DNA of 64,000 nucleotides from Tulanevirus 60ahydrpp (IMGVR_UViG_2974724359_000001:19795-83794); one strand, 5' to 3'; counted from the stretch's first letter, positions 15,174-42,240 are shown. Program-made: numbers and translations. The notes: a model not told the origin generated them from the letters alone.

Positions 15174-15439
15174 TGCAATTTTTATTTGAATTATTTGCAG
15201 TTAGCGTTCAATACACGGCTGTTGCACTGATTGTATATGTTTTGCTGCATGGTTATGCATTCTTTGACGAATGGCGGCGAGGAAAGCCTGACTCAAAGTT
15301 TCCAGCAAAAAGCCTATCAACCATGCAGATTTATGGAACCATTGCAGCAGCATGGCTACCTGTAGCTCTTTTCTTGCTATGGAAGCTAATTGAATTCATT
15401 TACGTCAAAGTAGTAGTCGATAAAATTTACAAAAAGTAG
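15173..15439 (+). CDS. small membrane protein
   Basis: 88 aa, two TM segments, ATG overlaps previous stop. Confidence 0.5.
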   Translation: MQFLFELFAVSVQYTAVALIVYVLLHGYAFFDEWRRGKPDSKFPAKSLSTMQIYGTIAAAWLPVALFLLWKLIEFIYVKVVVDKIYKK

Positions 15440-15479
15440 TTTACATTGATGGGACTATGTTTTATGATAGTCCCATCAA
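15439..15479 (+). promoter_or_regulatory. early-type promoter with palindrome (PeSL-like cassette 1)
   Basis: GTTTACA -35, 17 bp spacer, TATGAT -10; inverted repeat TTGATGGGACTAT / ATAGTCCCATCAA brackets the -10. Confidence 0.6.
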
Positions 15480-15499
15480 ATCAATACGGAGTAATTTAA

Positions 15500-15712
15500 A
15501 TGAAAATCTATCACCCGCAACATATCGCGAAAGTTAACGGTATTACAAAGGTTGACATGATTCGCGGCCATAAAACTCAAGGATTTCATTGCTATATCAT
15601 GTTTAAAGATGGCAAGGTCATTGATTGCACCTTCAAAAATGACACGGCACAATTCCGCAATATGGAAAAGATTGCTCGTGAAGTAGCAGCAGAACATCAA
15701 TACACTCTGTGA
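15500..15712 (+). CDS. hypothetical protein
   Basis: 70 aa, RBS ggagtaatttaaATG. Confidence 0.5.
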   Translation: MKIYHPQHIAKVNGITKVDMIRGHKTQGFHCYIMFKDGKVIDCTFKNDTAQFRNMEKIAREVAAEHQYTL

Positions 15713-15816
15713 GAAACAACACAGTTCTGACAATGGGTTGACTATAATACCCATCGAAATTGGCCGTGGAGGGAATCAATAACGCGTGCTGAAATACTAA
15801 TACCGAAGGAGGTAAA

Positions 15817-16272
15817 ATGAAAAAAATTGTTTTGGTTTTGGCTCTTGCTTTTGCATCTTCTTATGCGATCGCAGATTCAACCAATTTGATAATTGGTGGT
15901 TTTTCAAAACATTACGAAAATGATGAAATGAATGAAAAACATCCGGCGATAGGGGTCGAAATTGACAACTTTTCAATAGTATATACGTCGAAAAACTCGA
16001 TTAATAAACCTTCGGTTCAGTTGGCTTATTCTGACACATTTTACACTTATGGAATTTTTGATATTGGTTATCGCGTTGGTTTTATGACCGGTTATCGATA
16101 TGGAACAAAATATGCCAATAACCGATGGTATAATGGTGTTGATTTGGGTGCCGGGATAGCCCCGCTCGCCGCCATTGATATTTCGGTAGATACCCCTATT
16201 CCGAGCGTCAAATTTGTTACAAGCGTAACACCAGTTGTTACGATGTTCGGATTAAAGATTGAACTTTGGTAA
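15817..16272 (+). CDS. secreted protein, possible small outer-membrane beta-barrel
   Basis: 151 aa, signal peptide MKKIVLVLALAFASSYA, alternating hydrophobic pattern, C-terminal aromatic (…GLKIELW). Confidence 0.5.
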   Translation: MKKIVLVLALAFASSYAIADSTNLIIGGFSKHYENDEMNEKHPAIGVEIDNFSIVYTSKNSINKPSVQLAYSDTFYTYGIFDIGYRVGFMTGYRYGTKYANNRWYNGVDLGAGIAPLAAIDISVDTPIPSVKFVTSVTPVVTMFGLKIELW

Positions 16273-16287
16273 ATTTGAGAACGCAAA

Positions 16288-16533
16288 ATGAAAACTATTT
16301 CACCGACTGGTAAAGAAAAAACGTTCAAATCGTGGAAAAGCCTGAAAGAGTGGCTGTACGCTAATTTTGATTCGTGGGATGCTGATATATTAGATATTCC
16401 ATTTAACTCGACTGTACATTGGGGTCTGTGCCCATTTGATCAAGATATCTACAATGGAAAAGAAACGTTTGTTTGGAATTTCTGCAAAACCCTTTTAGAA
16501 AAAGAGCTCGAGAGTCGAGCTGAGGAGATTTGA
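16288..16533 (+). CDS. hypothetical protein
   Basis: 81 aa ORF. Confidence 0.45.
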   Translation: MKTISPTGKEKTFKSWKSLKEWLYANFDSWDADILDIPFNSTVHWGLCPFDQDIYNGKETFVWNFCKTLLEKELESRAEEI

Positions 16534-16534
16534 A

Positions 16535-16744
16535 TTGGAAACCGTCGTTGTAAAACTGCCCGCTCATCTAAAAGAATGGTTCATTTCTTATATGTGCAAT
16601 TCGGGTGAACAGCATCTCATGGAAGCATGGCATGATGAAGGCATCGAAGGCGATGGCGTCGATTTCAGATATCCATATTATTCTCGAAAGCGTGGCGAAG
16701 AAGTTGACGAGACCGCTGATATCGTAGTTACTGAGTATAAGTGA
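16535..16744 (+). CDS. hypothetical protein
   Basis: 69 aa ORF. Confidence 0.4.
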   Translation: METVVVKLPAHLKEWFISYMCNSGEQHLMEAWHDEGIEGDGVDFRYPYYSRKRGEEVDETADIVVTEYK

Positions 16745-16805
16745 TTTATTGTGAAACGTTTTTAAGTTATCGCTGAAATCGAGCGATCCGATATTCCGGT
16801 ATACG

Positions 16806-17030
16806 TTGGCAGGAAAATGGAATAGGTTAGTCATGAAAAAAGAAAACCACGACATCGATCGATATTCGGAACGTCTTCGTGACATTGAAAACATTTGTTG
16901 GGGCTGTGGAAAACCCTGGACAATCAGGGATTGCTCATGGCAGAAAGTGAAAGGATTATTGCATAGACAGCCTGGTTGTCCTGGGTGTGGTTCTAGGTCA
17001 ATAATTCACATACCGGGCACCCATAAATAG
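16806..17030 (+). CDS. zinc-ribbon protein
   Basis: 74 aa with CWGCG...CPGCG. Confidence 0.45.
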   Translation: MAGKWNRLVMKKENHDIDRYSERLRDIENICWGCGKPWTIRDCSWQKVKGLLHRQPGCPGCGSRSIIHIPGTHK

Positions 17031-17175
17031 ATATACCAAATAACAAAAGGTCGAGCGCAGCGCGGTAAGGAAGCGAAGCGGTTACATCCTTAATACTGAA
17101 CCGATTAAGTTACGGCGGATGGACTGGGCTATCGGTAAACGGGGAAGCATAGACCCGAGCACCTGGCGTTATTAT

Positions 17176-17260
17176 GCAAGTATGGTGGAATTGGTATACA
17201 CTGGAGGCTTAAAACCTCCCGCCTTCGGGATTGTGGGTTCGAGTCCCACTACTTGCACCA
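17176..17260 (+). tRNA. tRNA-Leu(TAA)
   Basis: acceptor gcaagta/tacttgc + A + CCA; anticodon arm ggagg-cTTAAaa-cctcc; long variable arm; T-loop GGTTCGAGTCC. Confidence 0.8.
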
Positions 17261-17271
17261 AATTCAAATTT

Positions 17272-17312
17272 CTAAAGCATATTGTTTACACGCTTTGGAA
17301 ATAAGATATTAT
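17272..17312 (+). promoter_or_regulatory. tRNA-cluster promoter copy 1
   Basis: ctaaagcatattGTTTACA-16-TATTAT; near-identical copies at 17642 and 20788. Confidence 0.55.
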
Positions 17313-17451
17313 TAACTTATCGAATCAAAACACGCATTCAGTCTTGAATGGGATAAATGGTGAAAAGCCATGGTTTTCCTGGAGCAAGCCTTAAGTGGAC
17401 AGAACTCTCATCCTAGTGACGCAGGAAGTGTTTAGATTCGAAAAGAATTCT

Positions 17452-17545
17452 GGAAGATTGGCCCGAGTTGGTTTAAGGCACCGGTCTTGAAAACCGGCAG
17501 TCGTAGGAATACGGCTCATCCGTTCGAATCGGATATCTTCCTCCA
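17452..17545 (+). tRNA. tRNA-Ser(TGA)
   Basis: acceptor ggaagat/atcttcc + CCA; ccggt-cTTGAaa-accgg; long variable arm; T-loop CGTTCGAATCG. Confidence 0.75.
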
Positions 17546-17551
17546 AATTGA

Positions 17552-17634
17552 GGTGCTGTGAGCCGAGCGGCTTAAGGCGGTCCTAATGCAGGACATACGA
17601 AAGCGTATCGTAGGTTCGAATCCTACCAGCACCC
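17552..17634 (+). ncRNA. type II tRNA-like gene with non-canonical anticodon loop (taatgca); anticodon unassignable
   Basis: perfect acceptor ggtgctg/cagcacc, D-arm, long variable hairpin catacgaaagcgtatcg, T-arm taggttcgaatccta, but 4 bp anticodon stem and loop lacking U33. Confidence 0.45.
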
Positions 17635-17641
17635 ATTAATT

Positions 17642-17682
17642 CTGAAGCATATTGTTCAGAGTTGCTGGAAATGAGATATTAT
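17642..17682 (+). promoter_or_regulatory. tRNA-cluster promoter copy 2
   Basis: ctgaagcatattGTTCAGA-16-TATTAT. Confidence 0.5.
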
Positions 17683-17713
17683 TATCTCATCGATTAAAAT
17701 AAGTTGATTTTGG

Positions 17714-17796
17714 GGTGATGTAGCATAACGGTCATGCGGCCGGCTGTTACCCGGCGAGGAAACTCTACGTTGGTTCGACTCCAACCATCACCGCCA
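17714..17796 (+). tRNA. tRNA-Asn(GTT) with unusually long variable region
   Basis: acceptor ggtgatg/catcacc + G + CCA; gccgg-cTGTTac-ccggc; 13 nt between anticodon stem and T-stem. Confidence 0.6.
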
Positions 17797-17809
17797 AAAT
17801 CAATTTCAT

Positions 17810-17893
17810 GGAGTATTTGGGTAACTGGTAGCCCAGCAGATTGTAAACCTGCCGCCTCTGGCATTCCTGGTTCGAATCCAGGATACTCCACCA
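17810..17893 (+). tRNA. tRNA-Tyr(GTA)
   Basis: acceptor ggagtat/atactcc + A + CCA; loop ttGTAaa; long variable arm; GGTTCGAATCC. Confidence 0.65.
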
Positions 17894-17914
17894 TTTCATT
17901 GCGAGAAATATATT

Positions 17915-18439
17915 ATGAAGCCTGACTTAATGACCGCATATTCCAATCAGCGTGGAAGAGCAAAGAATCGTGGAATAGATTGGGAATTTACATTCGACAC
18001 TTGGATATCTTGGTGGGAATCCACTGGTAAACTGAGTCAGCGCGGCATACATGTCGGTGGTTATATTATGTGTCGAGTAAATGATACCGGTCCTTATTCA
18101 CCATCAAATGTGTATTGCGGAACGTATTCCGATAACATGAAAGATATGTTATCATTGGGAACCCGCAAGGGATGGCAAATGAGCGATGACCATAGAGCCA
18201 GAATAGCCAAATTGGCCGGAAAAGCCGGTGGAAAACGTTTTGCTGAACTTTACTCATTAAGTCAAGATACAATCAAAACTCGTTTATCTTTAATATCAGA
18301 TATCGATTTGACGAAATTTGGTTGGGTTGTCAAGGTTGCTAAGGTTTTAAACATATCGCATACACAAGCGCGACGATTTGTTGACGAATGGTATGATGGT
18401 GAAGTTTACAAGAGAAATACGCCGGTAGCTAAGCGGTAA
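17915..18439 (+). CDS. putative homing-endonuclease-like DNA-binding protein (N-terminal YSNQRGRAKNRGIDWEFTFDTW motif, C-terminal helix-turn-helix)
   Basis: 174 aa ORF inside tRNA cluster; last 21 nt overlap tRNA-Lys; C-terminal AKVLNISHTQARRFV resembles NUMOD/IENR-type HTH. Confidence 0.45.
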   Translation: MKPDLMTAYSNQRGRAKNRGIDWEFTFDTWISWWESTGKLSQRGIHVGGYIMCRVNDTGPYSPSNVYCGTYSDNMKDMLSLGTRKGWQMSDDHRARIAKLAGKAGGKRFAELYSLSQDTIKTRLSLISDIDLTKFGWVVKVAKVLNISHTQARRFVDEWYDGEVYKRNTPVAKR

Positions 18440-18494
18440 AGCACCTGACTTTTAATCAGGATACTCGATGGTTCGAATCCATCCCGGCGTACCA
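18419..18494 (+). tRNA. tRNA-Lys(TTT)
   Basis: acceptor acgccgg/ccggcgt + A + CCA; cctga-cTTTTaa-tcagg; GGTTCGAATCC. Confidence 0.75.
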
Positions 18495-18500
18495 AACAAT

Positions 18501-18587
18501 GGAGAGGTAAGATGTAAAGATCATCAGCCCCTCGTAATGGGCCCGCCTTACAAGTCTTGTTGGAATCGAAGCCAACCCTCTCCACCA
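18501..18587 (+). ncRNA. tRNA-like RNA with CCA end and irregular anticodon and T arms
   Basis: acceptor ggagagg/cctctcc + A + CCA, D-arm gatg/catc, but anticodon arm gccc-ctcgtaat-gggc (8 nt loop) and 8 nt T-loop aatcgaag. Confidence 0.4.
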
Positions 18588-18684
18588 GATTTCGCAGTAA
18601 AGAAGTTGTAATGAACTGTCATCTTACGACCACACCGAGTAACGTTCGACGTATGATTACGAAGATTCCAGGGTGCTACAATTT

Positions 18685-18756
18685 GAATGACGAGTGTACG
18701 GCCAAGCACGCCACCTTTTAGGCGCCGGAGGACAGGTTCGAGTCCTGTATCATTCA
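18685..18756 (+). ncRNA. tRNA-like gene with 4 bp anticodon stem and 8 nt loop (ACCTTTTA)
   Basis: acceptor gaatgac/atcattc, D-arm gtgt/gcac, perfect T-arm acagg-ttcgagt-cctgt; anticodon region cgcc-acctttta-ggcg. Confidence 0.4.
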
Positions 18757-18785
18757 CTGCAAATTAGTTTCAAGTAATCATTGGT

Positions 18786-18860
18786 GTGACCTTAGTAGTA
18801 ATGGTAGCTATCCTGGATGTGACCCAGGGAGTACGGGTTCGAACCCCGTAGGTCACCCCA
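18786..18860 (+). tRNA. tRNA-His(GTG)
   Basis: acceptor gtgacct/aggtcac + C + CCA; cctgg-atGTGac-ccagg; GGGTTCGAACCCC. Confidence 0.75.
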
Positions 18861-18872
18861 ATGATTATTTTC

Positions 18873-18948
18873 GCGATATTAGCTCAGTTGGTAGAGCTTC
18901 TGATTTCCAATCAGAATGTCATCGGTTCGAGACCGATATATCGCTCCA
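18873..18948 (+). tRNA. tRNA-Gly(TCC)
   Basis: acceptor gcgatat/atatcgc + T + CCA; tctga-ttTCCaa-tcaga; D-arm agctcagttggtagagc. Confidence 0.8.
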
Positions 18949-19193
18949 AACACAAGTCACAGGGCTCTAGATTCCTAGTCAGTTTCGCACCCCTGGTTGA
19001 TGCACTGTCCATTATTGCGCCGTGACTGGAGCCCGCGAGTTGGACAACCGTATTGTCTCCGGCACTTAGATGACCGGCTTTAACAAGAGAAATCGGGAGA
19101 CGTCCCGTAAAATCCTCGGACAGAACTTTAGTAGTCACTCCCGTCATTTTGCGCGGTGAAACGAGGAAGTATAGACGGGGTAACGAATTCAAT

Positions 19194-19271
19194 CCGTGTG
19201 TAGGCTAGTCAGGTTAGGTCGTCTGGTTTGGGGCCAGAAAGTCGAAGGTTCGAATCCTTCCACACGGACCA
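19194..19271 (+). tRNA. tRNA-Pro(TGG)
   Basis: acceptor ccgtgtg/cacacgg + A + CCA; tctgg-ttTGGgg-ccaga; GGTTCGAATCC. Confidence 0.7.
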
Positions 19272-19547
19272 AATTACGTAAGCGGATACTTGGTTGCAAA
19301 CAAGTCCGTAAAGTCGTCGAATGTGGTAACATCCTCTCCTGGCACTATCCCAGTGATGCGGTTATCCAGAACGGCGCAAACTGAAGAATTGAGTCACATC
19401 CGTAAGGCCCTGACTCCAATTCTTCAAACACTCTTGTTTATGTGGCGGTCGAGACATCCCCACGTTAAAAACTGAAATCTCGATGTCCCGAGCTGCAGCG
19501 TTAGGGAAGAGTGTTTGAAGAATTGAACTAATGAGAAGAAATATATT

Positions 19548-20099
19548 ATGCAGATGACATTAACAAGACAGCATCACGCAGGCGAAATGCAATCATTCAT
19601 CGACGGTTCAATGACTGAAATCGATGCGATTTATGGATATGCGGATTTTTTATTCGAACGTAAGAAGAAAAAGCGAGCATCGCCATATATCAGTAATACA
19701 ATTCCAGCAATTCAAGCTTTTGCAGAATCTTTTGAGCAATCGATTGCTAGTTACTGCAAATACGCTTTTGCTAATAATATACGCTGCAAATGTGGTTACT
19801 TTTATATTATTTCAAATCCATCTTTTCCCGAAATGTATAAACTAGGCTTTTCGTTGGATTGCGTTGACAGACTTAAACAATATCAAACATATTGTCCGGC
19901 ACGCGATTTTAAGTTGGAATTCTATCTTGCTGTATCTAACGCTCGTCAAGTTGAACGACTTGTTATGCATATTCTAGGAGAACGAATGCAAAATGAGTGG
20001 TTTAAATCCACTGATATACGCGGCGACTGGAAAATGTTAACAAAAGAAATTGCACTTAATACCCGTGAGAACAATCGTTTTTATTATAAGCCAATTTAG
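19548..20099 (+). CDS. T5orf172 / GIY-YIG-like domain protein
   Basis: 183 aa; GYFYIISNPSFPEMYKLGFSLDCVDRLKQY matches the T5orf172 signature (GyvYvlsNp...KIG.T); embedded in tRNA cluster; 3' end overlaps tRNA-Thr by 10 nt. Confidence 0.55.
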   Translation: MQMTLTRQHHAGEMQSFIDGSMTEIDAIYGYADFLFERKKKKRASPYISNTIPAIQAFAESFEQSIASYCKYAFANNIRCKCGYFYIISNPSFPEMYKLGFSLDCVDRLKQYQTYCPARDFKLEFYLAVSNARQVERLVMHILGERMQNEWFKSTDIRGDWKMLTKEIALNTRENNRFYYKPI

Positions 20100-20164
20100 C
20101 ACAGCGGTAGTGCAACGTACCTGTAATACGTAGGTCGTCAGTTCGAATCTGACAATTGGCTCCA
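20090..20164 (+). tRNA. tRNA-Thr(TGT) with C33
   Basis: acceptor gccaatt/aattggc + T + CCA; acgta-ccTGTaa-tacgt; GTTCGAATC. Confidence 0.6.
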
Positions 20165-20187
20165 AATTTTTAAATGAGGAAAATATT

Positions 20188-20373
20188 ATGTTATTTGCTT
20201 ATCAAGTTATTGCTGTTATCTTCTTTATTTGCTCTTTCTTGGGCGATTACAAGCGATATTCAGACTCCCCTTCCGAAATTGCGGGTAATTTGATTGGCTC
20301 TGTTTTTGCCGGTGCTTTGTGGCCATTGACGGTACTTATCCATATTTTTTGTATCTCAAAACTCAATCGCTAA
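20188..20373 (+). CDS. small membrane protein
   Basis: 61 aa, two hydrophobic helices, RBS gaggaaaatattATG. Confidence 0.5.
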   Translation: MLFAYQVIAVIFFICSFLGDYKRYSDSPSEIAGNLIGSVFAGALWPLTVLIHIFCISKLNR

Positions 20374-20530
20374 ATAAATACAAAGGAACGGACTTCTTCG
20401 GACCCGTTCGTTAAGTAAAAAAGGGAAGACCATCTAGATATGACGAGGACGTCGGTCTGTATCATATCTAGCTGGCCCTTGGCCTCCGACGAGGTTTTGT
20501 CTGGAAGTGGTGCGCCCAGATCGTTTCAAT

Positions 20531-20606
20531 ATGACATTGGTGTTAGCGGTAGCATGCCGGTCTCCAAAACCGTGCGGCCAGGGTTCGAATCCTTGATGTC
20601 ATGCCA
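20531..20606 (+). tRNA. tRNA-Trp(CCA)
   Basis: acceptor atgacat/atgtcat (A1-U72 as in E. coli tRNA-Trp) + G + CCA; loop ctCCAaa; GGTTCGAATCC. Confidence 0.7.
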
Positions 20607-20608
20607 AT

Positions 20609-20684
20609 AGTGGATTAGCTCAGTAGGTAGAGCACTCGACCGATAATCGAGAGTGCATTGGTTCGATCCCAATATCCACTACCA
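20609..20684 (+). tRNA. tRNA-Ile(GAT) with C33
   Basis: acceptor agtggat/atccact + A + CCA; ctcga-ccGATaa-tcgag; D-arm agctcagtaggtagagc. Confidence 0.7.
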
Positions 20685-20691
20685 AATTCTA

Positions 20692-20779
20692 GGAGAAGTG
20701 GATGAGCGGCTGAAATCGCTTCCCTGCTAAGGAAGTAAACCGAAAGGTTTCGAGAGTTCGAATCTCTCCTTCTCCGCCA
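20692..20779 (+). tRNA. tRNA-Ser(GCT)
   Basis: acceptor ggagaag/cttctcc + G + CCA; cttcc-ctGCTaa-ggaag; long variable arm; GTTCGAATC. Confidence 0.8.
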
Positions 20780-20787
20780 AATGCATC

Positions 20788-20829
20788 CTGAAGCATATTG
20801 TTTAAAACTTCCCAACAAGTGATATTATT
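20788..20829 (+). promoter_or_regulatory. tRNA-cluster promoter copy 3
   Basis: ctgaagcatattGTTTAAA-17-TATTAT. Confidence 0.5.
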
Positions 20830-20856
20830 AACTCATACCAAAACAGAGTTTAGAGC

Positions 20857-20929
20857 GGAGCCATAGTTTATTTGGTTAAAATAGTCCCCTGTCACGGGTC
20901 AGCACCGAGTTCGATCCTCGGTGGCTCCG
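20857..20929 (+). tRNA. tRNA-Asp(GTC), CCA not encoded
   Basis: acceptor ggagcca/tggctcc + G; gtccc-ctGTCac-gggtc (one mismatch); GAGTTCGATCCTC. Confidence 0.65.
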
Positions 20930-20942
20930 CTCTAAATTTTGA

Positions 20943-21016
20943 TGTTACGTAACTCAGTCGGTTAGAGTCTGGGCCATAACGCCCCGGAGACGTAGGTTCG
21001 AGTCCTACCGTAACAA
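20943..21016 (+). ncRNA. tRNA-like gene, anticodon arm irregular (loop cataacg, possibly CAT-derived)
   Basis: acceptor tgttacg/cgtaaca, D-arm actc/gagt, T-arm gtagg-ttcgagt-cctac; anticodon stem tgggc/gcccc with C-C mismatch. Confidence 0.4.
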
Positions 21017-21025
21017 CCTAATTGA

Positions 21026-21102
21026 TGCGATGTAGAGGAGAGGTCGTCCTCGTCGGGCTCATATCCCGAAAATCGGTGGTTCGAATCCACCCATCGCTTC
21101 CA
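21026..21102 (+). tRNA. tRNA-Met(CAT), initiator-like (unpaired 1-72, three G-C pairs in anticodon stem)
   Basis: acceptor tgcgatg/catcgct (T1-T72 mismatch) + T + CCA; tcggg-ctCATat-cccga; GGTTCGAATCC. Confidence 0.65.
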
Positions 21103-21304
21103 ATTTCAATCGCTTGTTGAACGTGGGAAAATAGCAAAATATGGGAAAGGGTCGCGAACCGGAACCTTAAAGTAGCTTTCTAAGTACTTGTTGTCTGGCA
21201 GTTCACACATACGTATATTTGTGATGGGTTCGAGACCCTAACAAGCGCCCGAATAACAACGCCAGTGACTAATCGAATGATCGTTACCGGCTTTTTCATC
21301 TGAC

Positions 21305-21379
21305 GGCCCTGTAGCTAGACGGTTCAAGCAGGCGGCTCATAACCGCTCGTAGTAGGTTCGATTCCTACCAGGGTCACCA
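21305..21379 (+). tRNA. tRNA-Met/Ile2(CAT), elongator type
   Basis: acceptor ggccctg/cagggtc + A + CCA; ggcgg-ctCATaa-ccgct; GGTTCGATTCC. Confidence 0.7.
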
Positions 21380-21383
21380 ATTT

Positions 21384-21461
21384 GGGTTCTTCGTTTAATG
21401 GGAAGACCGTAGGTTGCTTTGCATCCTGATGATGCTATTTCGATACTAGCAGAACCCACCA
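21384..21461 (+). ncRNA. degenerate tRNA-like element with CCA end
   Basis: acceptor gggttct/agaaccc + A + CCA and TTCGATA T-loop, but no convincing D-arm; anticodon arm aggtt-gcTTTgc-atcct. Confidence 0.3.
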
Positions 21462-21477
21462 ATTTGAGGAAAATACT

Positions 21478-21927
21478 ATGGATATCGGATCCGGCGCGTC
21501 TTGGCCATCATGTGCATTGAGTAATTTTGCTCCACATGAATTCGTTATCGATGGGATTAGATGTTCCTCAATGGAAGGATTCCTTCAGTCTCTCAAATTC
21601 AAATCGCCTGAAATGCAAGAATACGTTTGCACTCTGGTTGGTAAAGCCGCCAAATTTAAAGGCAAAAAGAAAAACTGGTGGAGAGATCAAACTCTGTACT
21701 GGAAAGGTAAACCGATGCGGCGGCAAAGCGATGCTTATTCTGATTTAATCTGCCGAGCATATGACGAAATTGCGAAGAATTCCGGATTTCAACGGGCAAT
21801 CCTAGCCACCCGGAATTCTTCGTTAACTCATTCAATGGGTAAAAGCAAAAAGAATGAAACAGTGTTAACTGAACAAGAATTTTGTTCAAATCTGTATCGT
21901 ATCCGAGATAAACTTCAAGCCGCTTAA
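21478..21927 (+). CDS. NADAR (YbiA-like) domain protein
   Basis: 149 aa; SNFAPHEF..DGIRCSSMEGFLQSLKF matches the NADAR/YbiA signature (SNF...DG...S.EH.fQA.KF). Confidence 0.6.
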   Translation: MDIGSGASWPSCALSNFAPHEFVIDGIRCSSMEGFLQSLKFKSPEMQEYVCTLVGKAAKFKGKKKNWWRDQTLYWKGKPMRRQSDAYSDLICRAYDEIAKNSGFQRAILATRNSSLTHSMGKSKKNETVLTEQEFCSNLYRIRDKLQAA

Positions 21928-21940
21928 TTGCGGCTTTTTA
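21917..21940 (+). terminator. rho-independent terminator
   Basis: aagccgcttaattgcggcttttta. Confidence 0.7.
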
Positions 21941-21947
21941 GTCAAAT

Positions 21948-22024
21948 GGTCTCTTAGCTCAGCTGGATAGAGCAGCGGCCTTCTAAGCCGCGGGTCATTG
22001 GTTCGAATCCAATAGGGACTGCCA
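21948..22024 (+). tRNA. tRNA-Arg(TCT)
   Basis: acceptor ggtctct/agggact (two G-U) + G + CCA; gcggc-ctTCTaa-gccgc; D-arm agctcagctggatagagc. Confidence 0.75.
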
Positions 22025-26924: not shown

Positions 26925-27374
26925 ATGAATCGCTACAAACTTCGGAGAATCCTCGAAGCAGAGTTTAAAGAAATCAACAGAAAAATCGAAGAAGCTCGGT
27001 TGGCTTCTGGTCATGGCCACCGTTTTCATCTGGAATACACCTATCATTTCATAGATGACCTTTTGCTTCGCAATATCAATGTCGATGATACGCTGAGCTT
27101 GATCAAAGGCTTGAAGGAAAAAATACATGAAGTTGACGCATACATGTCTCTTCCGTATCCTCCGCATCTTGACGAAAAACGGGTCGAAGGTGTAGAATAT
27201 CGACCAATTCGCTTAGAAATCACTAATGGATCACTTTGGATTGGAATTACTCCTTCCAAAATTCCGCCATCATCAGAATACAGTTCTTCTTTGACATGCC
27301 GAATGGCAATAGTCAATTCGCGACGTTTAACTTCAAACGTAACTACGAAAGTCATTAAAATGGAGGGGTTATGA
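26925..27374 (+). CDS. hypothetical protein
   Basis: 149 aa ORF. Confidence 0.5.
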   Translation: MNRYKLRRILEAEFKEINRKIEEARLASGHGHRFHLEYTYHFIDDLLLRNINVDDTLSLIKGLKEKIHEVDAYMSLPYPPHLDEKRVEGVEYRPIRLEITNGSLWIGITPSKIPPSSEYSSSLTCRMAIVNSRRLTSNVTTKVIKMEGL

Positions 27375-27922
27375 GGCTATTGATGATTCTCATGATCGTA
27401 TTTGCCACACATGTTTATGCCGGTCCGTCGGTAACAGATTTTACGGACACTCAAAAGTACAATTTGTCGTATGCTTACAACTATGGAAAAGCTTATGACT
27501 TGATGGGAGAATTGCGAGATGTCAATAATCCGAATTTCTGGAACGATCGTCATCTTGGCACATTATTCGCTGCTATCGCATGGGAAGAATCCTCAGCTGG
27601 AATAAACACTGGTAGAAATAAAAAGGGTCATCACGCGTATGGGATGTTTCAAAATCTTTACACAACGGTTACATCTAAACTCGACAATAGAGGAATTCCG
27701 TACAGACATTGGTATCTGAAAAGGGATTTGGAGCGTAAAAGTTCTTCTGCCGAATGGGCTATGGATGAACTCTCATACTGGCTCAAGGTTCGAAAAGGTA
27801 ACATTCGAATTGCTCTGGCTTCATACAACGCAGGTTGGAATTACCATGCTGGATTGAAGTACGCTGATCGAGTTTTAGCTAAGAACCAAAACCTCAAGAA
27901 AATGGAATTTATTTCAAAATAA
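27371..27922 (+). CDS. lytic transglycosylase (SLT domain) with N-terminal signal or anchor
   Basis: 183 aa; hydrophobic N-terminus MRLLMILMIVFATHVYA; SLT motifs AWEESSAG, AYGMFQ, ASYNAG. Confidence 0.6.
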   Translation: MRLLMILMIVFATHVYAGPSVTDFTDTQKYNLSYAYNYGKAYDLMGELRDVNNPNFWNDRHLGTLFAAIAWEESSAGINTGRNKKGHHAYGMFQNLYTTVTSKLDNRGIPYRHWYLKRDLERKSSSAEWAMDELSYWLKVRKGNIRIALASYNAGWNYHAGLKYADRVLAKNQNLKKMEFISK

Positions 27923-27924
27923 AA

Positions 27925-27964
27925 GTGTAAATTTGATGAGACTATGATACGATAGTCTCATCAA
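27925..27964 (+). promoter_or_regulatory. promoter with palindrome (PeSL-like variant)
   Basis: GTGTAAA -35, TACGAT -10, inverted repeat TTGATGAGACTAT / ATAGTCTCATCAA. Confidence 0.45.
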
Positions 27965-27986
27965 ATAAACCATCCAAGGAAATCCA

Positions 27987-28214
27987 ATGAAAGTACGATT
28001 CAAATCCAAAGAAGATCGTAGCGAATTCATGCAACGTGGTCCAGCAAATAGGATGATTGCGACACTTATCGGCATGAATTGGTGGCTTGCTGAGAATCGT
28101 CTGAATGATGGCACAATCGAACTCGTGACTCCTCAAAAAGAATGCATCGAAATCGACGGATATTACGCTCTCATTTTCATGAATGAGCGCAAATATTTCC
28201 ACATTATTGTCTAA
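27987..28214 (+). CDS. small protein, RFKS-family paralogue 1
   Basis: 75 aa; N-terminus MKVRFKSKEDRSEF shared with ORFs at 37141 and 40338. Confidence 0.5.
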   Translation: MKVRFKSKEDRSEFMQRGPANRMIATLIGMNWWLAENRLNDGTIELVTPQKECIEIDGYYALIFMNERKYFHIIV

Positions 28215-28219
28215 ATCAT

Positions 28220-28251
28220 GTTGATGAGACCTTGGTATAATTGTCTCATCA
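28220..28251 (+). promoter_or_regulatory. extended -10 promoter inside palindrome
   Basis: TTGATGAGAC-cttgGTATAATt-GTCTCATCAA. Confidence 0.4.
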
Positions 28252-28528
28252 AATGAAAACACGCGGAGTATTAATTATGCATTACATCATCAACAAAAAC
28301 GGTATCGCCTTTGTTGTTTCGCTGGAAGGTTTTGATATTTCCAAAATCGATGGGAAAACCTTTTCCAGCCTATATGATATGAACCTTGAAATGCACGAGG
28401 AGTGTATCGGTTTCGAATATCTCGTAACACGAGAAGCTCCTGATTCACCGGTCATGATGTACACACAATACAGTGGCGAAATCGTGAAAATCGAACCTGA
28501 GCGTTTCATCAACGAATTTGTTTTGTGA
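28241..28528 (+). CDS. hypothetical protein
   Basis: 95 aa ORF. Confidence 0.45.
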   Translation: MSHQMKTRGVLIMHYIINKNGIAFVVSLEGFDISKIDGKTFSSLYDMNLEMHEECIGFEYLVTREAPDSPVMMYTQYSGEIVKIEPERFINEFVL

Positions 28529-31207: not shown

Positions 31208-31281
31208 TTTCAAAAAGTTGTTTACAACGAGGCCTTTTCATATAAAATGGCCTCAAGTTAAACAAAAATGAGAAACACACT

Positions 31282-31545
31282 ATGAAAAGTTCTGATGTTT
31301 TTGCCCAAGTTCAACTTGCCCAAGCTTTTGCCACTGAAGAGTTGAAACGCAAATTAGCTCCTGTTGGAAAATTCGTTGCCGACGAAATGATTTCCAAACG
31401 AGTTTTTACAATCACCTTCGCAGGCGATAAATTCCCTGGAATTTACACCAGAGATATCGTCGACTATCTAAGAACTCTTGGATATGAGACTCGCACCGAA
31501 TCTCACCGTAATGAAAGCTATATCACCGTAACTGCAAAACCCTAA
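31282..31545 (+). CDS. hypothetical protein
   Basis: 87 aa ORF, preceded by GTTTACA / TATAAAAT promoter-like sequence with GAGGCC/GGCCTC inverted repeat. Confidence 0.5.
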   Translation: MKSSDVFAQVQLAQAFATEELKRKLAPVGKFVADEMISKRVFTITFAGDKFPGIYTRDIVDYLRTLGYETRTESHRNESYITVTAKP

Positions 31546-33388: not shown

Positions 33389-33400
33389 TTTCAAAAAGCG

Positions 33401-33442
33401 GTTTACAGCGATGGGACTATGATTTACTATAGTCCCATCAAA
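33401..33442 (+). promoter_or_regulatory. PeSL-like promoter/palindrome cassette 2
   Basis: GTTTACA-17-TACTAT with CGATGGGACTAT / ATAGTCCCATCAAA inverted repeat; downstream leader aaggagtacatcATG identical to copy at 40623. Confidence 0.6.
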
Positions 33443-33459
33443 TCAGCAAGGAGTACATC

Positions 33460-33690
33460 ATGATTTATGTTGGTCAAAAATATCGAATTACCACCCCTGT
33501 GAATTCTTGCCACATCGTTGGGGTTGGTGACATTATTGAAATCACTGAATTATCTTGGTATGGTGTGCGTTCAATGGATATTTCGGTTGATATCGAAGGA
33601 AATTCATATAACGGCATCCTGATGTTTGAAGGACCGTACACTGTCGCGGAATATTGGGAAAAGGTCGAAATGTGCTTGGAGGCTGTTTAA
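33460..33690 (+). CDS. small protein, paralogue A of pair upstream of ATP-grasp gene
   Basis: 76 aa; MIYVGQKYRIT...HIVGVGDIIEITE. Confidence 0.5.
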   Translation: MIYVGQKYRITTPVNSCHIVGVGDIIEITELSWYGVRSMDISVDIEGNSYNGILMFEGPYTVAEYWEKVEMCLEAV

Positions 33691-33939
33691 ATGATTGACG
33701 GAATTTATCGGATTGTTGGTGAAATCTCTACGAACCATCGCCGCATTAGTCAAGGCGACGAGATTTATTTGAAAGAAGATGAATACGGAAATATTCGCGG
33801 TCCAGCAGTTGACTGGGAAGGGCGTGAAACTGAAATTGGTTACATTTTGTGCCCAGACACATTGGAAAAAATTCCCGGCAAAACTGACCAAGAAGCTTAC
33901 CGAATTTGGATTGACACCGTTTTGGAGAAAGTAGAATGA
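33691..33939 (+). CDS. small protein, paralogue B
   Basis: 82 aa; MIDGIYRIVGE...HRRISQGDEIYLKE, same YRI...H...GD(I/E)I pattern. Confidence 0.5.
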   Translation: MIDGIYRIVGEISTNHRRISQGDEIYLKEDEYGNIRGPAVDWEGRETEIGYILCPDTLEKIPGKTDQEAYRIWIDTVLEKVE

Positions 33940-35986: not shown

Positions 35987-36075
35987 TATCCCTTTAAAAA
36001 TAAAATTCAAAATGATTGTACTCTTACGTTAAACGAGTTTAGAATGTTATCATAATCAACCAACGGAGACAACCA

Positions 36076-36282: not shown

Positions 36283-36284
36283 AA

Positions 36285-36596: not shown

Positions 36597-36707
36597 CGCT
36601 TTAGTCATTTTGGTGTATATTACCAGTACAATGGTTTAGAATAAAAAGACTGGAAATAGAAACTCGAGCGAAGCTCGATCGCGAAGCGATAACTAATTGG
36701 AGATAAT

Positions 36708-37100: not shown

Positions 37101-37140
37101 TATGATCGTGGCCCCTTTCAAGGGGCCACTTGGAGGAATT

Positions 37141-37743: not shown

Positions 37744-37744
37744 C

Positions 37745-38803: not shown

Positions 38804-38849
38804 GATACAATTACGGAAAATGTTGTAACATCACCAAAGGAGAATAAAA

Positions 38850-39353
38850 ATGAAAGCAATCTGCATTCGCAAGAAAATCAAAAAGCAAAAATTTGAGCGC
38901 CTTACGCCTGGTGATGACGTGCGATACAAAAATGCCCGTTGGGAAGTTGCAACAGTTTGTTGCATCACTGAAAATCCAACGATTATTTTACGCAAAAAGA
39001 TGAGCCGAATTCATGTTATTATCGAACTTGTCACTGACTGTGGTGAAATGTCTTTCCGGTTTAAAGAAATTTCTCCCGAAGGTATTACCATCTGGGGTGA
39101 AACGTCTGAAACTTCCGAAATCAAATTCGTCAGTGGTCATTTCGGTGTGATGAAAGAAAACGAAGAAACTGTTTACACCCCGATTCAAGTCGGCGACGAA
39201 TTCATCCATCGTAATCATGATAAACGATACGTGGTTAAATTCATCGCAGAAGACGGTTCTCTAATTGCTTGGGATGCTGATTATCATAAGTCAGTTTTCG
39301 TTAACCGCAACGATCGTGATCAACTTAAAGCATATGACATGAAATTATCTTAA
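38850..39353 (+). CDS. hypothetical protein
   Basis: 167 aa ORF. Confidence 0.5.
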   Translation: MKAICIRKKIKKQKFERLTPGDDVRYKNARWEVATVCCITENPTIILRKKMSRIHVIIELVTDCGEMSFRFKEISPEGITIWGETSETSEIKFVSGHFGVMKENEETVYTPIQVGDEFIHRNHDKRYVVKFIAEDGSLIAWDADYHKSVFVNRNDRDQLKAYDMKLS

Positions 39354-39354
39354 G

Positions 39355-40338: not shown

Positions 40339-40583
40339 TGAAATTGATTCGCTTTAAATTCAAAAGTAAGGAAATGCTGACCGAGTATACTACTCGGTTC
40401 AGACGCCATATTTGGGCAGTAGGTTTCAGCGCAAACACAGTTTTTATTGCCAGAATCAACAAACGTGGCCAAGTCAAAAGTATTTTTGATGGTAAAACTC
40501 TTAAAGAACTTGTTTCTTCGAAAGAAGGTTGGCTTCCTTTTGCCTCCTTTGAGTTTGAAAAGTTTTGTGAAAAAGTAGACTAA
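40338..40583 (+). CDS. small protein, RFKS-family paralogue 3
   Basis: 81 aa; MKLIRFKFKSKEMLTEY. Confidence 0.5.
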   Translation: MKLIRFKFKSKEMLTEYTTRFRRHIWAVGFSANTVFIARINKRGQVKSIFDGKTLKELVSSKEGWLPFASFEFEKFCEKVD

Positions 40584-40586
40584 ACA

Positions 40587-40628
40587 GTTTACATCGATGG
40601 GACTATGATTTACTATAGTCCCATCAAA
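40587..40628 (+). promoter_or_regulatory. PeSL-like promoter/palindrome cassette 3
   Basis: GTTTACA-17-TACTAT with CGATGGGACTAT / ATAGTCCCATCAAA; 40 of 42 nt identical to 33401-33442. Confidence 0.6.
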
Positions 40629-40646
40629 TCAACTAAGGAGTACATC

Positions 40647-40898
40647 ATGAAAATCACTAAATCAACTAACCTGCAATCCATGGATTTCGTTGGCCGTGTC
40701 GTTAAGGCAGCGACAGAAACCAAAGAGGTTAAAATTACCCGATTCGAAACCATTGCTGCCGGTATTACCGTAGGAATCGTTGGCGCAGGGGCTGCAATGT
40801 GCTTTATTGGCGATATCGATATGGCTCGTAAAATCTTCATTGCTGGTATTATCGCTGGCGCAACTTTCCTCGTTATGAAAAAGGGACTGATGAAATGA
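40647..40898 (+). CDS. small membrane protein
   Basis: 83 aa from ATG 40647 (RBS aaggagtacatc); two Gly/Ala-rich TM helices. Confidence 0.5.
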   Translation: MKITKSTNLQSMDFVGRVVKAATETKEVKITRFETIAAGITVGIVGAGAAMCFIGDIDMARKIFIAGIIAGATFLVMKKGLMK

Positions 40899-41209
40899 TT
40901 AAAGCTGCTGAAATGGCAAAAATGGTTGCACAGAACTCCACAGAAATCGTCAATTCCGTATCTGTGCATTTTGATGATTTCTTCAATGATAATATGAAAG
41001 ACACAATGATTGTCAAAGGCGGCTATATGTCTGTTGACACGGGCCAATTCTTGCGTTACCTACGTGAAAAGCAGCCTTTTACTCATTTGCATAATGATGA
41101 CATTATCAAACGTTTTATTGCAGAACTGCGGGGATTGGGCTATAAAGCAGAACTTGTTTGTCCACCTATGAGCCCTGATTACATTTCAGTAGCGTTGGTA
41201 ACAAAATGA
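40895..41209 (+). CDS. hypothetical protein
   Basis: 104 aa ORF. Confidence 0.5.
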   Translation: MIKAAEMAKMVAQNSTEIVNSVSVHFDDFFNDNMKDTMIVKGGYMSVDTGQFLRYLREKQPFTHLHNDDIIKRFIAELRGLGYKAELVCPPMSPDYISVALVTK

Positions 41210-41226
41210 TCGTTTTGGGGCATTAA

Positions 41227-41520
41227 ATGGAGCTGAACATCGTTAAAGTATACTTGGAAAGCAAACTCCAAGTTGAATCGCTCATCGGTAATAAAGTCGG
41301 TGAACTTGAGATTTTCGCTAAAGAATATTGGCTGGTGAAAGACGGATTTATATTTCTGCATGACGGGCCAGGTATTTCCGAAAATGATTGTTCGCTCTGT
41401 TATGAAATTCTCCGGAAATGTCACGTTTCTGATGAAATCACGGTGTTTATGGTAGACGACTATGTTTCCGAAAGCGCCAAGGCTATTGTAGTTATTACTG
41501 ATAAGGAAGACAAATCATGA
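41227..41520 (+). CDS. hypothetical protein
   Basis: 97 aa ORF. Confidence 0.45.
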   Translation: MELNIVKVYLESKLQVESLIGNKVGELEIFAKEYWLVKDGFIFLHDGPGISENDCSLCYEILRKCHVSDEITVFMVDDYVSESAKAIVVITDKEDKS

Positions 41521-42188
41521 GTGGAAAATCTACCCTTCGTTCTCAACGTAAACACCAGCGCCGACGTCACAACGACATTGCTCATGTTCGCAATTTTTTG
41601 AACACCTTACAATCCGAGCAGCATGATCGCGATTGGCTCAATCTGGTTTGCAAAATGTTCAATGTTAAAACAATGGTGAAATGGGATAATACGTATCAAA
41701 AAACAGCCAGGATTCCGGCGTGGTTTTGGTACAAAATTGACCGAATTATGAGAGAAAACCATATTCCATGGTGTAAAGCCAACACTGGTATAGCCATATA
41801 CATGCATGAGAGAGGCGTCTCGCGAGTTGGCGAGTTGGCGTTTTCTACCGACAAAGGCGTATTGATGCTCGCACGGCTTCTTGAAATTGAAGTTCATTCC
41901 TCTGGTATGAATTTAGTTTTGCCGGTGTTGAATCGCTATCGGAACCGTCGGAATACCGAACTTCGCACGAAAATGGTTCATCCTAAGCCTGAAAACATTC
42001 ATTATGCGACTACCGAAGAGATTGATAGCATGAGAGATGCTATTAGCATTGATAAAATGTTAAAAGAAATCCCAGCACTCGAGTCACGAATCAGCGCTCT
42101 TTCTCGCGAACTTGCCCAATTGCAAGATAAACTCCAAAATACACGACAAGATGTCCGCGATTATCTTTCGAAAAAGTATGGTATTTGA
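41517..42188 (+). CDS. hypothetical protein with C-terminal coiled coil
   Basis: 223 aa ORF. Confidence 0.5.
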   Translation: MSGKSTLRSQRKHQRRRHNDIAHVRNFLNTLQSEQHDRDWLNLVCKMFNVKTMVKWDNTYQKTARIPAWFWYKIDRIMRENHIPWCKANTGIAIYMHERGVSRVGELAFSTDKGVLMLARLLEIEVHSSGMNLVLPVLNRYRNRRNTELRTKMVHPKPENIHYATTEEIDSMRDAISIDKMLKEIPALESRISALSRELAQLQDKLQNTRQDVRDYLSKKYGI

Positions 42189-42199
42189 TTGAAAAGTTA

Positions 42200-42240
42200 G
42201 TGTACAGTGATGGGAACATTGGTTATAATGTTCCCATCAA
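42200..42240 (+). promoter_or_regulatory. PeSL-like promoter/palindrome cassette 4 (variant arms)
   Basis: GTGTACA-17-TATAAT with GTGATGGGAACAT / ATGTTCCCATCAA; leader acggagtaatttaaATG identical to 15484-15502. Confidence 0.55.

What the first reader, a model, noticed from the sequence alone, without database searches (positions are those of the whole stretch)
15439..42240. Recurrent promoter + palindrome cassettes (PeSL-like) in front of unrelated genes
At least four nearly identical ~40 bp cassettes occur at 15439, 33401, 40587 and 42200. Each has GTTTACA, a 17 bp spacer and a TAtgAT/TACTAT/TATAAT -10, with a perfect inverted repeat (T)GATGGGACTAT / ATAGTCCCATC(AA) whose arms bracket the -10. 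Two variants at 27925 and 28220 use GATGAGAC arms. Some also share the downstream leader and RBS (acggagtaatttaaATG at 15484 and 42241; aaggagtacatcATG at 33446 and 40623). This matches the promoter-early-stem-loop (PeSL) cassettes described for Aeromonas T4-type phages, which are thought to drive modular gene shuffling. Because the 3' arm overlaps the predicted transcription start, the hairpin is a DNA-level feature. It could equally be an operator for a dimeric regulator.
Basis: partly seen in the sequence, partly recalled or inferred. Interest (0 to 1): 0.55.

Follow-up and report, generated by a model that had tools for sequence, protein, structure and literature searches.

The report
Phage early promoters with built-in hairpins
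A T4-like Aeromonas phage repeats a ~70-bp promoter cassette, with a hairpin wrapped round its -10 box, in front of unrelated small genes; this is a real member of the already described PeSL class, so it is useful but not surprising.

Summary
The window is Aeromonas phage 60AhydR15PP (Tulanevirus). Exact GATGGGACTAT-N8-ATAGTCCCATC occurs three times (0 expected). The wider family has 8 copies in the genome, 6 of them in the window. All are intergenic and lie just 5' of a gene start on the gene strand.

Each cassette has an A-rich tract, GTTTACA, a 16-17 bp spacer, TAnnnT, an invariant A at the predicted start, a Shine-Dalgarno site and ATG. A 10-15 bp inverted repeat has its axis at the upstream edge of the -10. 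At least 14 predicted early promoters in this genome share this architecture, with different stem sequences.

Across 8 related phages the pairing is kept by compensatory changes, while the stem sequence can change completely at one orthologous site. This argues against a sequence-specific operator.

Mismatches in stems are mostly G·T on the sense strand (about 15 events against 3 A·C), and there is no matching mutational bias. This points to pairing in read-through RNA, not to a purely DNA-level feature. The hairpins lack T-runs, so they are not classical terminators.

Some cassettes flank gene-module gain or loss, most clearly downstream of vs.1. Enrichment over other junctions in this plastic region is not significant.

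The cassettes fit the published PeSL definition, and phage 31's GenBank record already annotates the same element as "repeatB".

The parts
15430..15502 (+). Cassette 1. A-rich tract; -35 GTTTACA 15439-15445; left arm 15446-15458; -10 TATGAT 15463-15468; right arm 15467-15479; predicted +1 A 15475; GGAG 15488-15491; ATG 15500 (70-aa ORF).
   Evidence: hairpin -20.6 kcal/mol, z -4.5
27915..27989 (+). Cassette 2, GATGAGAC variant, downstream of vs.1. -35 GTGTAAA 27925-27931; arms 27931-27945 / 27952-27966 (15 bp); -10 TACGAT 27948-27953; predicted +1 A 27960; ATG 27987 (gene A, MKVRFKSK...).
   Evidence: z -5.9. Homology with ph25, 50Ahyd, avDM4 and IME13 stops at 27972, inside the cassette.
28205..28279 (+). 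Cassette 3, variant. Arms 28221-28230 / 28243-28252; extended -10 TGGTATAAT 28233-28241; no clear -35; predicted +1 A 28248; GGAG 28265-28268; ATG 28277 (gene B, MHYIINKNG...).
   Evidence: z -2.6
33390..33462 (+). Cassette 4. -35 33401-33407; arms 33410-33420 / 33429-33439; -10 TACTAT 33425-33430; predicted +1 A 33437; GGAG 33450-33453; ATG 33460.
   Evidence: The orthologue is annotated 'repeatB' in phage 31. Gene indels lie immediately downstream in ph25 and AS4.
40570..40649 (+). Cassette 5. -35 40587-40593; arms 40596-40606 / 40615-40625; -10 TACTAT 40611-40616; predicted +1 A 40623; GGAG 40637-40640; ATG 40647.
   Evidence: Orthologues carry G·T wobbles.
42190..42264 (+). Cassette 6. -35 GTGTACA 42200-42206; arms 42208-42220 / 42227-42239; -10 TATAAT 42224-42229; predicted +1 A 42236; GGAG 42250-42253; ATG 42262.
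   Evidence: The inner stem differs in a compensated way from the 44RR orthologue.
31210..31284 (+). Same architecture with an unrelated stem, downstream of tk. GTTTACA 31220-31226; GAGGCC 31229-31234 / GGCCTC 31249-31254 bracket TAAAAT 31243-31248; leader AAGTTAAAC; ATG 31282.
   Evidence: z -3.8
47966..48045 (+). Same architecture with an unrelated stem. GTTTACG 47976-47982; arms 47982-47995 / 48006-48019 (two G·T wobbles in this phage, perfect in ph25); -10 TAATAT 48000-48005.
   Evidence: -26.9 kcal/mol, z -5.3

Best explanation
These are composite early-gene expression cassettes of the PeSL type.

(1) Promoter (inferred from sequence). Each cassette is a T4-type early promoter read by host sigma-70 RNA polymerase. 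It has an A-rich upstream tract, GTTTACA, a 16-17 bp spacer, TAnnnT and C-1/A+1. It drives the small gene that follows through a short conserved leader and a GGAG-type ribosome site.

(2) Pairing (shown by comparison). The inverted repeat around the -10 is kept for base pairing, not for its sequence.

(3) Level of action (inferred). The pairing acts in single-stranded sense RNA. The predicted start lies 4-5 nt from the end of the 3' arm. So only transcripts that read through from upstream promoters contain the whole hairpin, and the cassette's own mRNA does not. The hairpin therefore marks or insulates read-through RNA, by attenuation, pausing, processing, or 3'/5' end protection. Which of these applies is not resolved. 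The hairpin is not a classical terminator, because no U-run follows it.

(4) Recombination (partly shown). The near-identical 40-65 bp copies give short homology through which promoter-plus-gene modules are gained or lost between related phages.
For: Promoter:
- Motif, spacing and position 5' of ORFs.
- Invariant A at predicted +1 and C at -1 in 27 cassette variants.
- Agrees with the 44RR early-promoter logo, which prefers C at -3 to -1.

Pairing under selection:
- 92.9% of cells paired, against 33-44% when the partner is slid.
- 6 of 12 pairs change on both sides.
- Covariation 0.354 against 0.164 in shuffles, 0 of 500 reaching it.
- At the vs.1 site the stem is GATGAGACTAT, GATGAGGCTAT, TGAGGTTAT or CTTGGGGTTATAG in different phages.
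- At least 14 promoters in this genome have such repeats with unrelated stems. The dyad axis lies within +-1 nt of the -10 edge in 41 of 57 distinct cassettes.

RNA level:
- Non-Watson-Crick pairs in stems are G·T/T·G 21 against A·C/C·A 3 over distinct arm pairs, about 15 against 3 independent events.
- Sense-strand transitions in flanking coding DNA are 155 (G·U-making) against 175 (A·C-making).
- P = 0.0017.
- Ordinary terminator hairpins show the same bias.
- Hairpins fold at -16 to -21.5 kcal/mol, z -2.6 to -5.9.

Recombination:
- 60Ahyd has vs.1-[cassette]-geneA-[cassette]-geneB. Relatives have only A or only B behind a single cassette.
- Homology breaks at 27972 inside cassette 2, and at 33455/33465 at the ribosome site of cassette 4.
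- An insert at 38823 in four relatives carries its own hairpin promoter.
Against: - No transcript data exist here. Start sites, read-through and any effect of the hairpin are untested.
- No U-run follows the hairpins and the terminator scan does not call them. The terminator role shown for one RB49 PeSL cannot simply be transferred.
- In phage 25 the copy that lost its downstream gene has a decayed -10 and a decayed hairpin, although the upstream gene remains. This hints that the hairpin serves the promoter or downstream gene rather than the upstream transcript (n = 1).
- The G·U test rests on about 18 events tallied by hand.
- Breakpoints are not enriched at cassettes relative to other junctions (Fisher P 0.22-0.48; Poisson P 0.13).
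- The outer arm GATGrGA is conserved from Tulanevirus to Biquartavirus, so some sequence-specific constraint remains possible. It may simply be the discriminator/start region and its complement.
Confidence: 0.6

Rival explanations
1. Operator. The palindrome is the binding site of a dimeric phage or host DNA-binding regulator that occludes the -10, for example to shut off early promoters.
For: The dyad is perfect and centred on the -10. The outer half-site GATGrGA is conserved in 8 copies here and in 44RR2.8t and AS4. The mechanism of early-promoter shut-off in T4 is still not explained by AsiA or ModA.
Against: Inner stem positions covary instead of being conserved. At the vs.1 site the whole stem is replaced in other phages but stays palindromic. 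Other early promoters carry unrelated stems in the same register. Single mismatches are G·T on one strand, which duplex recognition does not predict. Half-site centres are about 23 bp apart.
Confidence: 0.07
2. DNA-level structure. The repeat extrudes as a cruciform or single-strand DNA hairpin in supercoiled or replicating phage DNA. It then modulates promoter opening or acts as a target for recombination enzymes such as endonuclease VII, as the PeSL authors speculated.
For: The dyad axis is fixed relative to the -10. The phage-25 relic suggests coupling to the promoter. Breakpoints fall inside or next to cassettes. The phage encodes endonuclease VII. G·T is also the least destabilising DNA mismatch, so a non-template-strand hairpin would fit the bias.
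Against: A cruciform needs both strands to pair, and a G·T on one strand is an A·C on the other, so no strand bias is expected. In the hairpin -8 and -7 of the -10 are paired, which would hinder recognition rather than help it. Stems of 10-13 bp with 6-8 nt loops extrude poorly (general knowledge).
Confidence: 0.15
3. Plain rho-independent terminators that happen to overlap promoters, which is the original PeSL reading.
For: One RB49 PeSL stem-loop lowered lacZ expression as much as rrnB T1. The hairpins are stable. They sit at the end of each upstream gene with no other terminator.
Against: The hairpins are followed by CAAAUCAA or AGUUAAAC, not by a U-run. The consensus scan does not call them. 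The same phage uses classical GC-rich UUCG hairpins plus T-runs elsewhere, at 14085, 22459, 26830, 35957 and 44546.
Confidence: 0.12
4. No function for the palindrome. The copies are recent duplicates of one promoter that was palindromic by accident.
For: Copies are 85-95% identical over about 65 nt and share leaders.
Against: Pairing persists through compensatory changes across two genera and at unrelated stems. The chance expectation is 0.
Confidence: 0.03

Closest known systems
PeSLs (promoter-early stem-loops) of coliphages RB49/phi1 (Arbiol et al. 2010, PMC2839356)
   Same: Both are intergenic multi-copy cassettes in hyperplastic regions. Both have the upstream stop codon in an A/T-rich tract, a strong sigma-70-type early promoter, a stem-loop that most often lies between -35 and -10 or overlaps the -10, then SD and start codon. 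Both are linked to ORF insertion, deletion or replacement between close relatives.
   Different: RB49 promoters are TTGACA-N17-TATAAT with G-run/C-run stems in variable positions. Here the promoter is T4-type GTTTACA, the stems are A/U-richer, and the dyad axis is almost fixed at the -10 edge. One stem family (GATGrGA) is conserved. No promoter, terminator or mini-circle experiments exist for this phage.
PeSLs of PST/T4 and nt-1/KVP40 (Comeau et al. 2014, PMC4122927), and the T-even internal-protein-locus elements (Repoila 1994, as cited in PMC2839356)
   Same: T4-type early promoter consensus (TTTACW-N17-TAYWAT), weaker A/T-richer stems, and association with small variable ORFs.
   Different: In those phages the stem-loop lies just upstream of the promoter. 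Here it straddles the -10 and the start site.
'repeatB' repeat_region features in the GenBank records of Aeromonas phages 31 and 44RR2.8t
   Same: It is the same element. The 56-bp feature 31repeatB_3 covers the orthologue of cassette 33401. There are 5-6 copies per Biquartavirus genome.
   Different: It is annotated only as a repeat. No promoter, hairpin or function is stated, and no publication describing it was found.
Hairpin promoters of phage N4 virion RNA polymerase (general knowledge)
   Same: A promoter whose key element is an inverted repeat.
   Different: N4 hairpins have a 5-7 bp stem and 3-nt loop on the template strand, and are read by a phage RNA polymerase with SSB. Here the promoter is a normal sigma-70 type and the mismatch bias is on the sense strand.

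Membership tests
PeSL (Arbiol 2010 / Comeau 2014) | Sigma-70-like or T4-early-like promoter: -35, about 17 bp spacer, -10 | tested here: met
   GTTTACA/GTGTACA-N17-TATGAT/TACTAT/TATAAT in 4 of 6 copies. 27925 is weaker (GTGTAAA-N16-TACGAT). 28220 has only an extended -10.
PeSL (Arbiol 2010 / Comeau 2014) | A/T-rich tract upstream of -35 that holds the stop codon of the upstream gene | tested here: met
   caaaaagTAGtttaca (15439), ggtTAAtttcaaaaagcg (33401), gaaaaagtagacTAAaca (40587), ttTGAttgaaaagtta (42200).
PeSL (Arbiol 2010 / Comeau 2014) | Stable stem-loop in one of the five described positions, including overlapping the -10 | tested here: met
   10-15 bp stems bracket the -10, at -16 to -21.5 kcal/mol with z down to -5.9. 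Definition.
PeSL (Arbiol 2010 / Comeau 2014) | Shine-Dalgarno site and start codon of the downstream gene at the 3' end | tested here: met
   GGAG or AAGG 8-10 nt before the ATG in all six copies.
PeSL (Arbiol 2010 / Comeau 2014) | Multi-copy, intergenic, concentrated in hyperplastic regions | tested here: met
   8 family copies, 6 of them between gp57B and nrdD among small hypothetical ORFs. At least 14 hairpin-promoters genome-wide.
PeSL (Arbiol 2010 / Comeau 2014) | Located at insertions, deletions or replacements between close relatives | tested here: inconclusive
   There are clear cases at 27925/28220 and 33401, and an inserted module at 38823. But 3-4 of 7 cassette junctions vary against about 19 of 55 others (Fisher P 0.22-0.48).
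PeSL (Arbiol 2010 / Comeau 2014) | Demonstrated promoter and terminator/attenuator activity; mini-circle formation between copies | not testable with these tools
   Needs reporter assays and inverse PCR on infected cells.
Rho-independent terminator | G+C-rich hairpin immediately followed by a U-run | tested here: not met
   The tails are CAAATCAA, CAATAAAC or CAAATGAA. None of the six is called by the scan.
Operator of a sequence-specific dimeric regulator | Half-site sequence conserved between sites and orthologues, with no requirement for arm-to-arm complementarity | tested here: not met
   Stems differ between sites and are replaced at the orthologous vs.1 site. Changes are compensatory or G·T.
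Rfam RNA families | Match above the gathering score | tested here: not met
   Only tRNAs were found in 13000-45000.

The most novel reading that the evidence does not exclude
The repeat is more than a passive hairpin. It could be the recognition element, structure-specific or reading the conserved GATGrGA/TCyCATC arms, of a still unknown factor that switches this subset of early promoters off. That would bear on the unexplained early-promoter shut-off of T4-type phages. Alternatively, because it straddles the start site, it could be a purpose-built device that lets the phage treat read-through and locally initiated transcripts of the same gene differently.
Probability: 0.1. Interest if true: 0.65.

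Novelty: new member of a known kind. Interest (0 to 1): 0.3.

Why it matters
The cassettes give a ready map of probable early transcription units in a therapeutic-candidate Aeromonas phage group. They also extend the PeSL concept to Tulanevirus and Biquartavirus with explicit sequences.

Two points go beyond the literature and can be tested. First, the stem mismatch spectrum says the pairing is selected in sense-strand RNA. Second, the dyad axis is locked to the -10, so only read-through RNA carries the hairpin.

If confirmed, this would clarify what PeSL stem-loops do. Only one has been assayed so far. The near-identical copies are also practical sites to watch for deletions when engineering or propagating these phages.

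Tried and rejected
- Rfam scan of 13-45 kb found only tRNAs.
- The search for related loci with vs.1 in IMG/VR gave only 3 loci (phage 25, 44RR and one UViG), too few for covariation. I used GenBank relatives instead.
- The exact-motif scan of IMG/VR returned the same phages.
- The exact-motif scan of 185,579 prokaryote genomes gave 3 hits in unrelated MAGs and none in Aeromonas. They are terminator-like, without promoter context, so judged coincidental.
- Literature searches found no description of 'repeatB' or of palindromes in 44RR early promoters.
- I tested whether homology breakpoints concentrate at cassettes. They do not significantly, so I do not claim enrichment.
- I considered that the G·U excess reflects mutational bias and rejected it from polarised substitutions in flanking genes (155 against 175).
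- I considered RNase III sites, but stems of 10-15 bp are short for that enzyme. This remains only a sub-option.
- The downstream proteins were compared with each other only. I did not pursue their functions.


Full report
Identity of the window. The window is 100% identical to Aeromonas phage 60AhydR15PP (MH179477; Straboviridae, Tulanevirus). Window position 1 is record position 19795, plus strand. The flagged stretch lies in the long co-oriented block of early and middle genes between gp57B and nrdD. This block is full of small hypothetical ORFs, a tRNA cluster and auxiliary metabolic genes.

The observation. Exact GATGGGACTAT-N8-ATAGTCCCATC occurs at 15448, 33410 and 40596, against 0 in 100 dinucleotide shuffles. 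A variant with compensated inner stem (TGATGGGAACATT/AATGTTCCCATCA) is at 42208-42239. GATGAGAC-armed variants are at 27931-27966 (15 bp perfect) and 28221-28252.

Four copies have GTTTACA or GTGTACA, a 17-bp spacer, and TATGAT, TACTAT or TATAAT. 27925 is weaker (GTGTAAA-N16-TACGAT). 28220 has no -35 but has TGGTATAAT.

All six start in or just after the stop codon of the upstream gene. All end in a Shine-Dalgarno site and the ATG of a small ORF. The downstream proteins are unrelated to each other.

In the whole 165.8-kb genome the family has 8 members. The other two are at record 118154 and at 144650, upstream of the gp31-like chaperone.

A general architecture, not one motif. A scan for T4-type early promoters followed by an SD and ATG shows at least 14 promoters in this genome with an inverted repeat bracketing the -10. 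Their stem sequences are unrelated. Examples are GAGGCC at window 31229, GTTTGTGCGGATGT at 47982, GTGACTATTCTA, TGATGTGGC and CTTGTGGTTATAG.

Across 57 distinct cassettes from eight phages, the dyad axis lies exactly between -13 and -12 in 26, and within +-1 nt in 41.

In an ungapped alignment of 27 variants, the A seven nucleotides after the -10 is invariant and is preceded by C. This matches the preference for C at -3 to -1 reported for 44RR early promoters. The predicted start therefore lies inside the 3' arm, 4-5 nt from its end.

Pairing or sequence? I fetched the homologous 40-50 kb from phages 25, 50AhydR13PP, avDM4, Aes508, IME13 and AS4, plus 44RR2.8t, which belongs to another genus, Biquartavirus.

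On the 27-sequence alignment, 92.9% of cells form standard pairs, against 33-44% when the partner is slid. Six of 12 pairs change on both sides. The covariation score is 0.354 against 0.164 in shuffles, with 0 of 500 reaching it.

At the orthologous site downstream of vs.1 the stem differs by phage:
- GATGAGACTAT in this phage.
- GATGAGGCTAT/ATAGCCTCATC in Aes508, a compensated change.
- TGAGGCTAT in 44RR.
- TGAGGTTAT/ATAACCTCA in 50Ahyd, avDM4 and IME13, also compensated.
- CTTGGGGTTATAG/CTATAGCCTCAAG in AS4, with two G·T pairs.

So palindromy and register are conserved while sequence is not. A sequence-reading dimeric regulator does not predict this.

RNA or DNA? Among non-Watson-Crick pairs inside stems of distinct arm pairs I count 21 G·T/T·G, 3 A·C/C·A and 7 others. 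By parsimony this is about 15 independent G·U-type events against 3 A·C-type events.

Polarised sense-strand transitions in about 14 kb of flanking coding DNA give 155 changes that would create G·U in a stem, against 175 that would create A·C. There is therefore no mutational bias in that direction. The binomial P is 0.0017 for 15 of 18, and 0.0096 for a stricter 12 of 15.

The phage's ordinary terminator hairpins show the same spectrum: 7 G·T/T·G against 1 C·A, and that one comes from a dubious hit.

A G·T on the sense strand is an A·C on the other strand. So the bias points to pairing in a single sense strand. This is most simply RNA made by read-through from upstream promoters, which is an established route of T4 prereplicative expression.

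The geometry instead means that only read-through RNA contains the hairpin, and the cassette's own mRNA does not.

What the hairpin does is not settled. The hairpins fold at -16 to -21.5 kcal/mol, with z from -2.6 to -5.9. They are followed by CAAAUCAA or AGUUAAAC, not by U-runs, and the terminator scan does not call them.

The phage uses classical GC-rich UUCG-loop hairpins plus T-runs elsewhere, for example at 14085, 22459, 26830, 35957 and 44546. So a classical terminator role is unlikely. Attenuation or pausing, processing, or end protection of read-through RNA all remain open.

One observation cuts the other way. In phage 25 the gene after cassette 33401 is deleted. That copy has lost both a good -10 and good pairing, although the upstream gene is intact. 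This is a single case.

Gene shuffling. At the vs.1 locus this phage has vs.1-[cassette]-geneA-[cassette]-geneB-geneC. 44RR and Aes508 have only geneA behind one cassette. Phages 25, 50Ahyd, avDM4, IME13 and AS4 have only geneB (with or without C) behind one cassette. Homology with four relatives ends at 27972, just 3' of the hairpin. This is the arrangement the PeSL model predicts.

Three further observations fit the model:
- AS4 lacks exactly the ORF after cassette 33401, and phage 25 lacks 33456-33789.
- Four relatives have an insert at 38823 that brings its own hairpin promoter.
- Cassettes 33401 and 40587 share 95% identity over 64 nt.

However, most of the roughly 34 distinct homology edges in 12-46 kb are not at cassettes. 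Cassette junctions are not significantly more variable than other junctions (Fisher P 0.22-0.48; Poisson P 0.13). I therefore regard a recombination role as plausible and illustrated, not demonstrated.

Comparison with what is known. The PeSL definition lists the following: stop codon in an A/T-rich tract, early promoter, a stem-loop most often between -35 and -10 or overlapping the -10, SD and start codon, multi-copy, and in hyperplastic regions near indels. All sequence-level criteria are met.

PeSLs were described in RB49/phi1, then in PST/T4 and nt-1/KVP40, where the stem-loop lies upstream of the promoter. For Aeromonas phages 25 and 44RR2.8t the 2010 paper mentions only PeSL-like sequences in the g43 locus, as data not shown. 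Such a hairpin around a -10-like GATAAT is indeed present after g43A here.

The cassette matches 41 phage records at 150 places. All are Aeromonas T4-like phages, plus IME13. In phage 31's GenBank record the orthologue is annotated as repeat_region '31repeatB_3 similar to ... 44RRrepeatB'. The element had therefore been seen but not interpreted, and I found no paper describing it.

Verdict. This is a real, non-chance, functionally constrained regulatory repeat. It is a new member of a known kind (PeSL). The operator reading is unlikely, and the DNA-only reading is not supported. The modest new content is the fixed register and the sense-strand G·U signature.

Noticed in passing
window 11756-11828 and 55560-55640: An inverted pair of a ~90-110 bp intergenic repeat with its own hairpins (TTATCCTTT...AAAGGATAA). 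It sits at the gp2/gp3 junction, where the 44RR2.8t record annotates a 112-bp '6 copies of repeated sequence detected in intergenic regions'. This is a second repeat family, and its function is unknown.
   Followed up: partly
window 31249-31265, and many promoters elsewhere in the genome (record 101906, 107845, 111722, 113078): There is a second conserved leader family. After the -10 many early promoters read AGCC(T/A)CAAGTTAAAC(A/G), instead of AGTCCCATCAAATCAA. Both have an invariant A at the predicted +1.
   Followed up: partly
window 26925-27374, and the SD sites at 15488, 28265, 33450, 40637 and 42250: The phage encodes a RegB endoribonuclease homologue. Five of the six window cassettes (six of the eight family copies) use GGAG as Shine-Dalgarno, the motif RegB cuts in T4 early mRNAs. 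These early messages may be RegB targets.
   Followed up: no
window 17176-22021: A cluster of 19 tRNA genes. A separate repeated promoter box (CTGAAGCATATTGTT.A.A) occurs at about 17272, 17650 and 20788, each with a short hairpin round TATTAT. tRNA content and spacing differ between relatives.
   Followed up: partly
window 49676-49705: ATGCCCAGG-tgtTATAATgac-CCTGGGCAT followed by TTTTTG. This is a classical terminator hairpin with a perfect TATAAT in its loop but only a poor -35. It is conserved in five relatives.
   Followed up: partly
window 38823-38827: avDM4, Aes508, IME13 and AS4 carry a ~750-bp two-gene insert here. The insert contains its own hairpin promoter (ATGGGATTAACTTGA...TCATGTTAATCCCAT). 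This phage and phage 25 lack it.
   Followed up: partly
L006 (phage 25) 20368-20430, orthologue of window 33401-33462: A relic cassette. The downstream gene is deleted, there is no ATG, the -10 has degraded to TACTTA and the hairpin is broken. This resembles the 'degraded PeSLs' described near indels.
   Followed up: yes
L023, L024, L025 (MAGs of Thermodesulfovibrionales, Halobacteriales, Saprospiraceae): The exact arms GATGGGACTAT/ATAGTCCCATC occur in three unrelated metagenome-assembled genomes. There they form A-run/hairpin/T terminator-like sites without promoter context. This is probably coincidence.
   Followed up: partly
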